Assembly (NCBI GenBank): GCA_951406725.2
Contig: OX597819.1
Location: 81,096,001-81,160,000, forward strand
DNA length: 64,000 bases
Direction of reading: 5' to 3'
Origin: Octopus vulgaris
Taxonomy: Eukaryota
Position numbers and translations under genes: made by a program. Shown one piece after another: positions 143 to 34,999 of this stretch. Every line of letters starts with the position of its first letter. The first letter of the stretch is position 1. Below the pieces are notes generated by a model, which worked only from the letters and a program-made list of their open reading frames with translations, had not been told where the DNA came from and searched no databases.

Positions 143-473
143 TACTAAGTAATTAAGGGTTTAGCAACGAATTGCCTCACCAACACACCGAATTTAGAAA
201 TAGCAGTCAAAGAGATATAGCTATTCCTTCCACTAAAAGGGGGATCTCAGTAAAAACACAGCACTGAGATCCCCCTTTTAGTAGAAGGAATAGCTATATC
301 TCTTTGACTGCTATTTCTAAATTCGGTGTGTTGGTGAGGCAATTCGTTGCTAAACCCTTAATTACTTAGTATTACTTAAATTTTCCTCGAATGGGGCTTT
401 TACATGCCGAAATCTACTTGGTGTAATTGATAATTATTCCAAATTAATTAATTTCACCCTTTATTATTACTGA
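143..473. mobile_element. Head-to-head inverted fragment of a (TA)n-embedded Penelope-LTR/retrozyme-like element
   Basis: About 143-251 is a near-perfect reverse complement of about 263-372. 263-473 is homologous (reverse complement) to 31823-32040. (TA)n lies on both sides. Confidence 0.7.
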
Positions 474-894
474 TATATATATATATATATATATATATAT
501 ATATATATATATATATATATATATATGTATGTATGTATGTATGTATGTATGTATGTATGTATGTATGTATGTATGTATGTATGTATGTATGTGCGTACGT
601 ATGTATGTACGTACGTATGTATGTATTTATAAAGTGTACTTGGCACATTTTGCCAATCATCTCTCGGAGAACTCTACTCTTCAATTTGAAACATTTTCAT
701 TGAGAATATGGATTGCTTTTGGAATATAAGTTTTCCAGTGACACTGCTTCAAAATGCGATGGACACTGGATTCTGGAGCTCTTAACTAACGACTCGCTAA
801 TAACTCAAATTTTCTTGAGCACTGGCAATACCCTTCTAGTATATTGTCTTGGCCTAGTGGGCTCTTCGATATTCCCGCTCATATATATATATAT

Positions 895-1690
895 GATGCT
901 AAGATGAATATAGAAATTGAGTCGTGAAGGCAAGCTCTGCTTTCGGTGACCGTTATCACAAGCTTTGGAGTAGCCACGACATATCGTTGAAGGTCGATGT
1001 ATATAAGTCGGGGGTCTTGACAACATTGCTTTATGATGCTGAATCTTGGATTTTGTGCCAAAAGCATATCAATCATTGACACTTTTCATATGCGATGCTT
1101 GCATACGATCGCCAACATTAAACTGATTGACCATATACATAATAAGGAGGTATTGACAATATGCAACATATCAGGTATTGAAGCTATCCTCATCAAAATG
1201 CAAATGGTCAGGTCATCTCTCATGTATAAGTGATATCAGAATTCCGAAGCAATTTCTCTTTGGTCAATTCTCAACAGGAAGGTCAGTTGGACGACCACTC
1301 TTGCACTTTAAAGACAAACTAAAAGGCAATTTGAAGCGATGCAACATTCCCTTTCTTTCTGGGAAAACAAAGCATCAGAATGCAAGACCTCGCGCTAGTC
1401 CTGCTTCTCCTCAGGTCAAAGATTTGAGCAAAGTCGACTCCAACATCAAGATCAACTTCATGCAAGTATGAAGGCACGGTGGTAAAACGCTGCTCCTCTA
1501 AATGGAGCATTGCCTGTCATTGTGTTTTTGTAGCACGAAGCAAAGCAAACATTGCCGTCTACTCAAGAAAACCAATAGTGAATGATCCACAGGCACTCAA
1601 GCAAATTGAGTTCTCAATTTGTCCCATTTGCCAAAAGGTTTGCAAGGCCTCAAGAGACACGTTCGTGTCCATAGAACATGATTAATAATA
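895..1690 (+). pseudogene. Decayed RTE-clade LINE, C-terminal RT region
   Basis: Frameshifted peptides VYKSGVLTTLLYDAESW, DTFHMRCLHTIANI, SGIEAILIK, RIPKQFLFGQ, GRPLLHFKDKLKGNLKRCNI are typical of the RTE/BovB ORF2 end. Confidence 0.8.
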
Positions 1691-1790
1691 TATTTTACTG
1701 AACCCTCATTTGTCGTCCACGATAGGAGAATCCATAATTTCATATATATATATATGAAATTATGGATTCTCCTATATATATATATATATA

Positions 1791-2186
1791 TTAATCAATA
1801 TAGGGTGGCAAAAAAATTTTGTAGAATTCTTTTGCCACCAGCGGCCTAGTGGGAAAAAATTTAAATAGTCATAAACCATTTTTAAGTTCAACATCACAAT
1901 CAAGGAACGGCCATAATAGGCCATTCACCCACTAGAAATAACAGCCAAAAGCTTCAACCGCAAAATAACATCAATTCCGTAAACCAGGAGAAAATTAAAA
2001 AACATTTACCCTGTAATTTCTTATACGATGCACCGTTTCATCTACTGTTTAATGGTAAACTAACCTGATTAAATTAAATCAAGCCAATCTACCATAGGCC
2101 CTTAGATTCATCAGTAAGAAATAGCCAAGTCGGAACAGATATTTTTCACGAGGCAATCCCGTTCCTGCCTCGTCAATATCTGACCT
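1791..2186 (-). mobile_element. About 400-bp hammerhead-containing element between two (TA)n tracts
   Basis: Bounded by (TA)n. Contains the hammerhead at 2016-2122, the shared motif at 1933-1948 and a terminal hairpin at about 1804-1839. Confidence 0.7.
2016..2122 (-). ncRNA. Type I hammerhead ribozyme with extended helix II
   Basis: Minus strand: AUUUCUUA-CUGAUGA-AUCUA...UAGAU-GAAA-CGGUGCAUCG-UA-UAAGAAAU. Helix I is 8 bp, the core is intact and the triplet is GUA. A 19-bp inner stem contains five G-U pairs. Confidence 0.9.
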
Positions 2187-2269
2187 ATATATATATATAT
2201 ATATATATATATATATATATATATATATATATATAAATATATGGTGGTTGTCTACACTTTATGCAGGGT

Positions 2270-31690: not shown

Positions 31691-31822
31691 ACATACATAC
31701 ATACATACATACATACATACATATATACATATACATATATTTATATATATATAATATTATATATATATATATATATATATATATATATATATATATATAT
31801 ATATATATATATATATATATAT

Positions 31823-32436
31823 ATCAATAATAACAAAGGGTAAAATTACTTAATTAACTAGTAATCAATAAATAATTTCACCAAAGTAGAATTCGGCATG
31901 AAAAAGGACCATTTCTCTGTAAACCTAAGTAATATTTTATAATTAGGGTTCAGCAAAGATTTGCTTTACCACATACCGAAGTTTAGAAATAGCAGCCAAA
32001 GAGCCTTAGCTATTTCCTCTACTTTAAAAAGAGACTCCCGGACAAAAACAAAGTACTTGAAAACAACCCACGTAGGCAGAGAGGAAAAATAACGAAACTC
32101 AATCGGTATTTGATTACCTATGGACGCGTTTCGGAATTAGATCAGTATAAAGAATGTAGAATTTATACTTTACCCAAACATTTTCCTCTTCAGCATGGGA
32201 CTTCACAATATTAAATCCGAAAGCACTGGAAGAATTGAATATACCTCCCCAACTAACAGTATCAGACAGATCATATTCAACGTCCAGTACCGCCGAATTC
32301 AAAACATACTTGCCCATCCACGTGTGTTGTCAAGTAAAAATACGACAGAAAAAATCTGTAGTTTATTATCAGGGAGAAAATTATATTATCAATAATAACA
32401 AAGGGTAAAATTACTTAATTAACTAGTAATCAATAA
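31823..32436 (-). mobile_element. 565-bp hammerhead monomer plus about 49-bp terminal direct repeat, abutting (TA)n
   Basis: ATCAATAATAACAAAGGGTAAAATTACTTAATTAACTAGTAATCAATAA occurs at 31823-31871 and 32388-32436. Confidence 0.85.
32117..32199 (-). ncRNA. Type I hammerhead ribozyme with extended helix II
   Basis: CCCAUG-CUGAAGA-GGAA...(AGUAUAAA/UUUAUACU inner stem)...UUCC-GAAA-CGCG-UC-CAUAGG. Helix III is palindromic (ACGCGU) and the triplet is GUC. Confidence 0.85.
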
Positions 32437-32556
32437 TTGCTGCATAAAAAATCTCTTGGCTGGAGGAAAGGTTCGTGATCCACTTATATACATACACTTA
32501 TTTCGGTTAGTGACTTATTTGCGAATATACCAACACTAGCGCCGCTGAGGGTAATA

Positions 32557-32830
32557 TTCTCTGGGAATGCACATAAGCCCTTTTCAGAGTTATTTACTTT
32601 GAATTGTTATTAACTCATACCTGATTAGCCTGTTATTACGTAACATGCTTCACGATTTTAGTATGCCTACCTTATTAGTATTCCCTCATAAGTTCTATAT
32701 ACTCTGGGAACGCTTTAAAGCCCTTTTCTGGGCTACTTTATTTGAATTCTTACTGTCGGGTAACTAATTTCATGTTATTACATAACTGACTTCACAATTT
32801 GGATATTCATAACTTGCTGTGAATTCTTAA
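32557..32830. repeat. Diverged tandem duplication of about 144 bp
   Basis: CTCTGGGAA...AAGCCCTTTTC...TTTGAATT recurs at about 32559 and 32702. Confidence 0.6.
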
Positions 32831-34999
32831 AAACAAGATCCTGTGTAAGACAGTTTGGCATTCCCTGTAAATGCAGAGAAACCGTTTTAAGGGTCACATA
32901 CTTTGTATTGTTGTTATTGGATTAGCGAAACAATTATGAGAACGGAATCAAGGGATAGGACCCGATTTCCCGGAAAATTACTAATATACATGCATACATA
33001 CATACATACATACATACATACATACATACATATACATACATACATATACATACATACATACATACATACATATATATATATATATATATATATATATATA
33101 TATATATATATATATATATATAAGGATAAGATCGTTATTTAAATACCGATCTTATCAGGTGGCCAGCATGTGTATAAACCTTCAAAGGTAATGATTATTA
33201 TTAAAATAACACCCGCTAGTTTATTTTGTCTTCTCTTCTGGTACTGGATGAACATTTAATGTCGTTTTAGAGTCAAGTTTTGGCTGCTATTTCCAGCGTG
33301 GTAGTATCTCTTAGATACATTAATTATATACTTATATATATATATATATGTGTGTGTGTGTGTGTGGGTGTGTGTGTGGAGAGAGAGAGAGAGAGAGAGA
33401 GAAAGAGAAAGAAATATCAATACATATTTATTGAACTATATGTAAGAAAATCTATCTATGGTAAACTCCAATGTTAATACAGTGTGTATACACACATACA
33501 CACACATACATATTTACGTATACACATACCCATGTGTGTGTGTGTGTGTGTGTGTGTATGTGTCTGTCTGTCTGTCTGTCTGTTTGTGTCCGCTTGTGTG
33601 CTTGAGTAGCTATAAATTATAAATGTGCATGTACTAAACGAATTTATATATTGAAAATCGTTATATTAGCAACACGAAAGCTAAGATAAGTTCTGCAACT
33701 AACTAAAAGTTTTGAATTTATTGATACAATTGTTAAAACTCAAGTGAATTAGGTGAAACTGTCTTGCTGTATGTATGAAAGACTGAATCCACTGCTGTCG
33801 TAGGTAGGAATTTATCCCACCTTGTCGCTCTATATTTCTTTAGTTCTTCTTCCCAATGTATTTCTCTGTCACCGACATGATTTATTTAACTAGTGTTCTT
33901 CGCTAGCAGACTGCTATGGAGCTTCTTACTTTTCTTTTACTGAGTTCATTCTCTCAATAAGTTTTCGTTGATAAAAGTGTCCACAAGTTAATTAAACGAA
34001 CTGTTTAAGCGACACATCACATCGTAGTGTCCGAAAATTCAATCATAACTATTTACTGAAGACTTGTCGAAAACGGCAGAAGCCATGTTAAAGCCAGCAC
34101 GCATTTATTATCTTCGCAGCACGTTATTGAGTAGAGCACAAGAACATTTGTACATTGCAATTCTTCTTGGAGTTGAATGTCACGAATGTTTACGGCTGCT
34201 AATATATTTGTAAAATGGATGAATATTGTTTAGAAAATTGTTGTTGCTGCTTATATAAACATTTCTGGCCTTTTTGTCATCGATATGACTTTTCTTTTTC
34301 TTATAACAGATAAATGCAATAAGTATATGTTTTGTTTCCTTTTTTTTCCCTTTTGATTTTTGCTTTCGAAAACCTATTTTTGCTACACCAACAAGAGAAA
34401 GCACAGATATACAAGATTCACTAGACTTGTAATGGTTTTTATTGTTTATTGGCATATGTTAAAAAGTGCTACAACTATGATCACTCCGTCCCATCCAAGA
34501 ATACAATGTAGCATGTATCCATTCTCACACATTTTTTTAAGACAGTTAAAATATAATTTCAGGGAGATTTAACACTTATTTTCACATGTAGCACTTTCGT
34601 TTTCTTGTTTGATAGTAGTTTTAAACTCATGAACACAAAATTTAAAATGTCAGAAAATATAGATGAAGTGAATTTTTTCTTCTTTTTCTTTACATGAGAC
34701 TTACATTAGCTGACACTTTCTTAATGTTAACAGATCAACTGCTATTGATCTGAGATTACATGACAACACCAAATTTTACTTCGAACCAAAGAAGGAAGGC
34801 AACTGCATGAGTGTGAGATGTAGGATATAGCAGCAAAATTTCCCACAAATCACATCCTAGCGGTTTAAATTAGGATACAGTGCATTTCAAAATGTAGTGC
34901 CACATATGCTAACAAGCCAAGTAATAGACACACACACACACACACACACACACACACATATATATATACATATATATAAGAGTAAAGTTATCGTCTCGA

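What the first reader, a model, noticed from the sequence alone, without database searches (positions are those of the whole stretch)
195..33295. Shared 16-nt motif TTGRCTGCTATTTCTA downstream of the ribozyme in unrelated families
Seen: variants at 1933-1948, 31984-31999, 30499-30514 and 31641-31655. Each is on the hammerhead-sense strand about 75-140 nt 3' of the predicted cleavage site, in three families that do not otherwise align by eye. It also occurs in fragments at 195-210, 304-319, 33280-33295 and about 51549-51563. Inference: a conserved cis signal, for example an RT-recognition, promoter or 3'-processing element. I know no named function for it.
Basis: partly seen in the sequence, partly recalled or inferred. 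Interest (0 to 1): 0.72.

Follow-up and report, generated by a model that had tools for sequence, protein, structure and literature searches.

The report
Shared handle of Penelope-type parasitic RNAs
A 16-letter signal recurs about 24,000 times in this animal genome, at the same place near the end of several small jumping repeats that otherwise do not align, most carrying a predicted self-cutting RNA, and it is likely the handle by which a Penelope-type jumping-gene enzyme grips these RNAs before copying them, though that enzyme was not identified.

Summary
The motif is real: 10 window matches against 2 expected, 24,353 exact genome copies against 2 for the control. It lies on the hammerhead strand, 75-136 nt after the predicted cut, in four retrozyme lineages that do not align outside it. 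Genome-wide it follows a hammerhead 3'-half pattern 8,026 times on the same strand and 696 times on the other. It is not a ribozyme feature: 14 of 30 exact hits belong to an old hammerhead-less repeat, and 6 of 10 unbiased hammerheads lack it. Its constant landmark is the element end. Copies stop at two fixed points, about 30-60 and 105-175 nt after the motif, as Penelope-like elements do, and a predicted RNA fold starts right behind it. Best reading (0.55): a sequence-specific recognition element for a Penelope-type protein. No exact copy was found in 17 autonomous-element ends, so the partner is unknown; Hydra-clade ends hold a weak gapped relative. Earlier notes of this scan described these retrozymes and their twin ends on other DNA, but the lines shown do not mention this motif.

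The parts
1791..2186 (-). Copy of young retrozyme family F1 (492-nt unit), 5'-truncated, running to the distal 3' end, between (TA)n runs
   Evidence: best genomic copies 98-100% identical
2024..2121 (-). Predicted type I hammerhead of F1 with a long stem II; predicted cut after 2024
   Evidence: descriptor scan; fold z -3.6; no Rfam match
1933..1948 (-). Motif, F1 variant, 75 nt after the cut; F1 ends lie about 40 and 143 nt after it
143..258 (-). Left arm of a head-to-head pair of family F3b; no hammerhead left; stops at the proximal end (52 nt after the motif); inner boundary approximate
195..210 (-). Motif, exact
259..472 (+). Right arm of the F3b pair; runs to the distal end (about 153 nt after the motif); inner boundary approximate
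304..319 (+). Motif, exact
30463..30809 (-). Older family F2 copy; hammerhead 30649-30713 with an altered cleavage triplet
30499..30514 (-). Motif, F2 variant (2 mismatches), 134 nt after the cut position
31082..31296 (-). Third F2 fragment, head-to-head with the next copy; the motif beside it is partly deleted
31350..31690 (+). F2 copy; hammerhead 31447-31503 with a 2-nt loss in the core; stops at the proximal end
31640..31655 (+). Motif, F2 variant (2 mismatches), 136 nt after the cut
31824..32408 (-). Family F3a copy; hammerhead 32123-32199; the distal-end sequence also stands at its 5' side (32389-32408)
31984..31999 (-). Motif, exact, 123 nt after the cut
33122..33325 (.). Family F4 head-to-head pair: inverted distal-end piece, then a 5'-truncated + arm that stops at the proximal end; boundaries approximate. 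Longer F4 copies (L164, L217) carry a predicted hammerhead about 85-94 nt before the motif
33280..33295 (+). Motif, F4 variant (1 mismatch)
11176..11366 (-). Copy of old hammerhead-less repeat B; motif at 11219-11234
   Evidence: nhmmer E 3e-8
63608..63682 (-). Fragment of repeat B; motif at 63648-63663
   Evidence: nhmmer E 1.4e-4
46909..47120 (+). Repeat B copy with a decayed motif (two more copies at 47460-47640 and 34786-34916, both minus strand)
51548..51563 (+). Isolated 2-mismatch site; no family assigned; decayed remnant or chance

Best explanation
The 16-nt motif is a conserved sequence near the 3' end of several non-coding repeat families that insert like Penelope-like elements, and it likely serves as the recognition site that a Penelope-type reverse transcriptase/endonuclease binds on the RNA before starting to copy at two fixed points downstream. 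Shown: the copy number, the strand, the position 30-60 and 105-175 nt before two fixed ends, 5' truncation, head-to-head pairs, tandem units, (TA)n targets and flanks that do not align between lineages. Predicted: a structured domain that opens right after the motif, holds the first end, and closes before a terminal hairpin and the second end. Inferred: that the two ends are reverse-transcription starts, that the motif is read as sequence by the element's protein, that one protein lineage serves all families, and that the hammerhead is a separable module. The partner enzyme was not found; a Hydra-clade element is my guess.
For: 24,353 exact copies against 2. Strand bias 8,026 to 696. One motif in four hammerhead lineages (F1, F2, F3, F4) and in repeat B, with flank alignment z at most 4.2 between lineages against up to 23 within F3. 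Two-peaked junctions into (TA)n: F1 16 of 24 at +39 to +45 and 6 at +142 to +144; F3a 23 of 47 at +42 to +55 and 17 at +145 to +166; F4 4 of 6 at +36 to +46 and 2 at +127 to +130. Among the first 100 exact hits, neighbours under 1 kb apart are 13 tandem, 9 head-to-head, 1 tail-to-tail. In ten F3 copies a sense-strand fold is kept by G-U and double changes (6 of 26 pairs); in the helix that holds the motif every departure is on the partner strand except one compensated pair, so the motif is more constant than pairing needs. Its pairing partner differs between lineages, yet the letters stay. It is the best-kept part of old families (rank 3 of 104 windows in B, 7 of 362 in F2). Precedent: the anole Poseidon protein starts at two internal sites downstream of the hammerhead, needs that region of the RNA, and does not need hammerhead cleavage (PMC11167929).
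Against: No exact or near-exact copy in 17 ends of autonomous or coding Penelope-like elements (Neptune-like, Hydra-like, one further group, one Naiad-like end); best scores 13.6, 11.9, 9.2 and 9.2 against 22.6 for a true site, p about 0.02-0.05 uncorrected, 13 others not significant. F1 is very young, so its partner should be findable; Poseidon-type and full Naiad elements were not screened. In F3a the motif is no better kept than the rest (rank 182 of 393). The long-range helix after the motif is no longer than in shuffled sequence for F1, F2, F4 and B. Repeat B shows few Penelope marks: 4 head-to-head rows (about 3 loci), 6 of 117 followed by a tandem start, TA runs near 12 of 72. The motif also sits in two repeats that look like DNA elements. 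Nothing was tested by experiment.
Confidence: 0.55

Rival explanations
1. Shared ancestry and structure only: all families descend from one old Penelope terminal repeat, and the 16 nt are the last alignable trace, held by folding rather than read by a protein.
For: F3a-g align beyond the motif and F1 aligns with F1b upstream. The motif pairs in every predicted fold. Position 15 covaries with its partner between lineages (U-A in 29 of 30 F1 copies, C-G in 8 of 9 F2 copies). The motif is not specially kept in F3a.
Against: Its pairing partner changes from upstream (F3) to downstream (F1, F2, F4) while the letters stay. In F3 the partner strand varies and the motif strand does not. Paired regions around it have turned over completely between lineages.
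Confidence: 0.2
2. The motif is a double-stranded DNA site for a host factor (enhancer or promoter element) that drives germ-line transcription of the units, kept or captured by many repeats for that reason.
For: It occurs in tandem in a repeat with CCAAT-like boxes (T107) and as an inverted pair in a palindromic DNA-type repeat (F5). In Drosophila virilis Penelope, nucleotides 611-680 control ovary expression (PMC2377424, passages).
Against: It keeps one orientation relative to the RNA and a narrow distance to the insertion ends, which enhancers do not need. The two DNA-type repeats may simply have captured B-like pieces (F5 shares about 40 nt with B, by eye).
Confidence: 0.15
3. The motif base-pairs with a cellular small RNA (tRNA, snRNA) or mimics an Sm site for processing or circularisation.
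For: Most variants between lineages are C/U or A/G swaps, which G-U pairing would tolerate (one search list).
Against: Such swaps are also the commonest mutations. Rfam gave no match in the window and no snRNA or tRNA match over the motif in 11 loci at E up to 1. In F3 the motif is predicted to be paired in cis. The host's own snRNAs and tRNAs were not compared.
Confidence: 0.05

Closest known systems
Animal non-LTR retrozymes (Cervera and de la Pena 2020, PMC7229834, passages seen; Li, Clavereau and Pollet 2026, 10.64898/2026.07.22.740005, parts 1-3 of 5 read)
   Same: Non-coding tandem or single units with a type I hammerhead, proposed to be non-autonomous derivatives of Penelope terminal repeats. 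F1 (492 nt), F3b (594 nt) and relatives fit.
   Different: The text I saw names no shared cis motif, no fixed ends and no 3' structure. Here the units are longer than the 170-400 nt of the 2020 paper, stem II is long, and a hammerhead-less repeat shares the motif.
Poseidon element PAc of Anolis (Frangieh et al. 2024, PMC11167929, parts 1-2 of 4 read)
   Same: Two internal reverse-transcription starts downstream of the hammerhead give two genomic ends (the tail); a protein-binding region is inferred around them; AT-rich targets; hammerhead cleavage is dispensable.
   Different: The PAc region lies inside the ORF, the tail is described as 30-40 bp (here about 70-120 nt), and no sequence motif is defined. 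The elements here encode nothing.
Hydra-clade Penelope-like elements (Craig et al. 2021, PMC8557442, passages and supplement searches)
   Same: Families in this genome with DKT, RW and CxCX5C features have hammerheads with a long stem II, two ends and (TA)n flanks; three related ends carry a gapped look-alike of the motif 29-35 nt after the cut.
   Different: No exact motif in any of 8 Hydra-type ends; the look-alike is much nearer to both the cut and the first end. Searches of that paper's supplement found the 10-letter core only in unrelated places.
SINE/LINE pairs with a shared 3' recognition tail (general knowledge, recalled; mentioned in PMC5786205, seen as search listing only)
   Same: Unrelated non-coding RNAs share a short 3' segment that the autonomous element's protein recognises.
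   Different: Here the shared part is 16 nt, lies upstream of both ends rather than at the end, and the autonomous partner is unknown.

Membership tests
Non-LTR retrozyme (F1-F4) | Type I hammerhead in the unit | tested here: met
   Core, stems I-III and cleavage triplet found by descriptor or by eye in F1, F1b, F2, F3a-c, F3g, F4; Rfam does not detect them
Non-LTR retrozyme (F1-F4) | [quoted passage not shown] | tested here: met
   F1 period about 492 nt, F3b 592-594 nt; no tblastn match of Penelope proteins inside units. Tandems were not shown for F2 or F4
Non-LTR retrozyme (F1-F4) | Self-cleavage and circular RNA | not testable with these tools
   Only assembled contigs of runs guessed to be RNA were available
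Non-LTR retrozyme (repeat B) | Type I hammerhead | tested here: not met
   0 of 72 B-assigned motif copies have a hammerhead upstream; no core in the aligned 230 nt
Penelope-mobilised non-autonomous element (F1-F4) | 5' truncation with inverted head-to-head copy | tested here: met
   9 head-to-head against 1 tail-to-tail among the first 100 exact hits; scattered 5' ends
Penelope-mobilised non-autonomous element (F1-F4) | Two alternative 3' ends (tail) and microsatellite targets | tested here: met
   Two-peaked (TA)n junctions in F1, F2, F3a-d, F4
Penelope-mobilised non-autonomous element (F1-F4) | End sequence shared with an autonomous element of the same genome | tested here: inconclusive
   None of 17 ends has the motif; weak gapped relatives in 4; Poseidon-type and full Naiad elements not screened
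Penelope-mobilised non-autonomous element (repeat B) | 5' truncation towards the motif end, inversions, tail | tested here: inconclusive
   Coverage 28-33 of 36 on the motif half against 12-18 on the other; few inversions; no clear second end
Known SINE central domains (Meta/MESC and others) for repeat B | tRNA-derived head plus conserved central domain | tested here: inconclusive
   No Rfam tRNA match on the B copies scanned; motif words absent from text of PMC4824008 and PMC4758252, but their alignments are figures and one supplement file was not searched
Protein-binding RNA element of Penelope-like elements (as inferred for PAc) | Required for binding or priming by the element's protein | not testable with these tools
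   Needs a biochemical test

The most novel reading that the evidence does not exclude
One Penelope-type enzyme lineage reads a portable 16-nt handle. Unrelated small RNAs, with or without a hammerhead, board that machinery by carrying the handle in front of a fold that sets two copying starts. This would be the first defined recognition sequence for Penelope-like elements and the signal that makes retrozymes mobile.
Probability: 0.35. Interest if true: 0.75.

Novelty: new variant of a known kind. Interest (0 to 1): 0.52.

Why it matters
How Penelope-like proteins choose their RNA, and how animal retrozymes borrow them, is proposed in the papers read here but not shown. A 16-nt sequence shared by lineages whose flanks have fully turned over, at a fixed place before the two insertion ends, gives a precise target to mutate in an existing type of in vitro assay. 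It also gives a search key for the missing partner enzyme. It suggests that the ribozyme and the mobility signal are separate modules. If the motif is only a relic of ancestry, the result shrinks to a family tree of retrozymes.

Tried and rejected
Chance: rejected (in 600 kb of evenly spaced sequence 33 sites at up to 2 mismatches against 1.8 in shuffles). General hammerhead accessory: rejected, 6 of 10 unbiased hammerheads lack it. Coding motif (it reads Leu-Ala/Thr-Ala-Ile-Ser): rejected, the units have no Penelope-like ORF and variants fall on all codon positions. Conserved GAAA hairpin on the opposite strand: variants break it in F1, F3 and T107. Hot spot of 5' truncation at the motif: F1 starts are spread along the unit (the F3a rows of that call are void because my reference held a TA run). 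Partner search: GIY-YIG family and four protein searches gave Neptune-like, Hydra-like and one further group, none with the motif. Family F5 first looked like a hammerhead link to repeat B but has no catalytic core. Alignment held two wrong rows (L092 mis-set, L204 truncated) and was replaced. The F3a row ends at the proximal end, so its downstream scores include flank. Family classes rest on fuzzy signatures and mix some F3a and F3b copies. Metagenome (31) and viral (16) pattern hits look like chance microbial matches. Expression: no RNA holder listed; contigs of three runs guessed to be RNA cover F1 but show neither ends nor strand. Literature search by motif words returned unrelated papers, mostly on CRISPR, among the 20 of 747 listed, probably through the guide-RNA scaffold (recalled). 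A recalled likeness of the F2 variant to part of U1 snRNA was not tested.
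Full report
Observation. The pattern matches 10 places in the window at up to 3 mismatches, against 1.97 in shuffles. The genome (2.8 Gb; probably an octopus, inferred from its repeats and the wording of earlier notes) holds 24,353 exact copies against 2 for the reversed control. In 60 evenly spaced 10-kb stretches there are 9 exact, 13 one-mismatch and 11 two-mismatch sites against 0, 0 and 1.8 in shuffles.

Who carries it. Clustering of flanks gives four hammerhead-bearing lineages. F1 is young, with a 492-nt tandem unit and best copies 98-100% identical; F1b is a relative. 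F2 is older, 74-86%. F3 is a group of at least seven subfamilies. F4 has its hammerhead in longer copies elsewhere. Rfam misses these hammerheads, probably because of the long stem II; they were found by descriptor and by eye. A fifth carrier is repeat B, about 230 nt, about 30-35% diverged, 36 hits in 600 kb (about 170,000 copies by extrapolation), with no hammerhead (0 of 72). Of the first 30 exact hits 16 are F3 and 14 are B (by eye). Of the 33 unbiased sites 12 are in hammerhead families, 10 B-like, 7 in two repeats that look like DNA elements (T107, F5) and 4 unassigned (by eye).

Relation to the ribozyme. A hammerhead 3'-half pattern is followed by the motif 70-130 nt later 8,026 times on the same strand and 696 times on the other. 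The distance is fixed within a lineage and varies between them: F1 75, F1b 84, F4 about 85-94, F3g 102, F3a 123, F3b 124, F3c 126, F2 136. But only 4 of 10 hammerheads in the unbiased sample have it; the others include Hydra-type element ends. The motif therefore marks one group of elements, not hammerheads as such.

Are the families unrelated? With the motif left out, alignment z-scores between F1, F2, F3, F4, B and T107 are at most 4.2 (F4 with F3g) and mostly under 2, against up to 23 within F3. Among copies picked without regard to the motif, it ranks 3 of 104 windows for conservation in B, 7 of 362 in F2, but 182 of 393 in F3a. Another well-kept 16-mer of B has 2,047 exact copies, against roughly half of 24,353 for the motif; 5' truncation can explain part of that gap.

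Relation to the ends. Junctions into (TA)n fall in two peaks after the motif: F1 16 of 24 at +39 to +45 and 6 at +142 to +144; F3a 23 of 47 at +42 to +55 and 17 at +145 to +166; F3c 7 of 11 at +56 to +69 and 4 at +141 to +150; F4 4 of 6 at +36 to +46 and 2 at +127 to +130; F2 7 of 20 at +30 to +34 and 6 at +106 to +124. The window pair at 195/304 shows it directly: one arm stops at the first end, the other at the second. Neighbouring exact hits are 13 tandem, 9 head-to-head and 1 tail-to-tail. These are the marks described for Penelope-like elements (PMC8557442, passages). Repeat B is truncated towards the same side, and young B-derived pieces end about 46 nt after the motif before a TA-rich run (L403, L404), but its other marks are few.

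Structure. Single-sequence folds put a long-range helix at or just after the motif's 3' end, enclosing the first end and followed by a terminal hairpin and the second end, in F1, F1b, F2, F3b, c, e, f and less clearly F4. In ten F3 copies 26 pairs are predicted, 6 with changes on both sides, and the G-U pattern fits the sense strand. There the motif's 3' half pairs upstream, and all departures lie on the upstream strand except one compensated pair. In F1, F2 and F4 the motif's end pairs downstream instead. A crude test did not find this helix longer than in shuffles for F1, F2, F4 or B, so outside F3 the fold is a prediction only.

The partner. Searches for GIY-YIG and Penelope proteins found Neptune-like families (781-aa frame with RVT_1 and GIY-YIG), Hydra-like families (frames of 727 to 960 aa, several very young) and one older group. 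Of 17 element ends scored with a motif profile none has a true site. Three related Hydra-type ends and one Neptune end give weak gapped matches (13.6, 9.2, 9.2, 11.9 bits against 22.6; p about 0.02-0.05, uncorrected). The published Octopus bimaculoides Naiad ends with a loosely similar stretch (seen in the supplement; not scored).

Mechanism. In the anole Poseidon system the protein starts reverse transcription at two internal sites downstream of the hammerhead, needs the surrounding RNA and does not need cleavage (PMC11167929). By analogy I take the two ends as starts (inferred) and the motif as the sequence the protein reads at the foot of the fold that presents them (inferred, 0.55). Rivals are ancestry plus folding (0.2), a host DNA-binding site (0.15; precedent in PMC2377424, passages) and pairing with a small RNA (0.05).

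Novelty. Retrozymes and their link to Penelope-like elements are known, and earlier notes of this scan describe a 490-nt family with twin ends on other DNA. I found no description of this motif in five literature searches or in the passages and supplements read. Figures, one supplement file of PMC4824008, the closed bioRxiv supplements and repeat databases were not seen and may hold these families. Verdict: a real, apparently undescribed cis element of a known kind of parasite, with an untested but directly testable role. Interest 0.52.

Noticed in passing
L259, L266 (G000:C2:191031013-191034348; C27:15430862-15434197): Very young Hydra-like Penelope family: 130 of 150 scored endonuclease matches are 100% identical, many with a 727-aa open frame; compact hammerhead in the terminal repeat.
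   Followed up: partly
L397-L400: Young Hydra-like family with a 955-960-aa frame and a non-coding stretch of about 2.7 kb between tandem ORFs; hammerhead with a stem II insert of about 90 nt.
   Followed up: partly
L151-L156: Young Neptune-like family with an upstream frame overlapping the 781-aa RT/endonuclease frame and a variant hammerhead core; the terminal repeat holds many CCAAT-like and CRE-like boxes (labels recalled).
   Followed up: partly
L476-L478, L327, L333: Family F5: non-coding repeat with a perfect-looking 120-nt palindrome that carries the motif on both arms; ends resemble Helitron-like elements (recalled).
   Followed up: partly
L313, L326, L333:7500-7900: Repeat T107: 107-nt tandem units, each with a motif variant, between inverted CCAAT-like boxes; element class unknown.
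   Followed up: no
L403, L404 (G000:C1:5022000-5024300; 4381500-4383600): Young 107-nt tandem arrays made of the motif-bearing 3' part of old repeat B plus a TA-rich spacer, near-identical at two loci.
   Followed up: partly
L097, L349, L402: Another repeat with a motif variant (two changes) in about 400-nt tandem units; no hammerhead recognised.
   Followed up: no
L040, L316, L001, L009, L030: GC-rich boxes resembling NRF1 sites (label recalled) upstream of the hammerhead in several retrozyme units; a candidate promoter separate from the motif.
   Followed up: no
L417-L428: Old, abundant Penelope-like group (5,328 first-look candidates, 68-84% identical) with C-terminal GIY-YIG and a fixed 3' end; clade not assigned.
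   Followed up: partly
window 41043-42149, 38954-39604, 35999-36571, 740-1470: Fragments that read like a Helitron/PIF1 helicase, an R4/Dong-type LINE end, a mariner transposase and an RTE-type LINE (by eye; labels recalled, no family scan).
   Followed up: no
window 30105-30139 (+) and 26700-26739 (-): Two further small hammerhead-like motifs without the 16-nt motif (descriptor).
   Followed up: no
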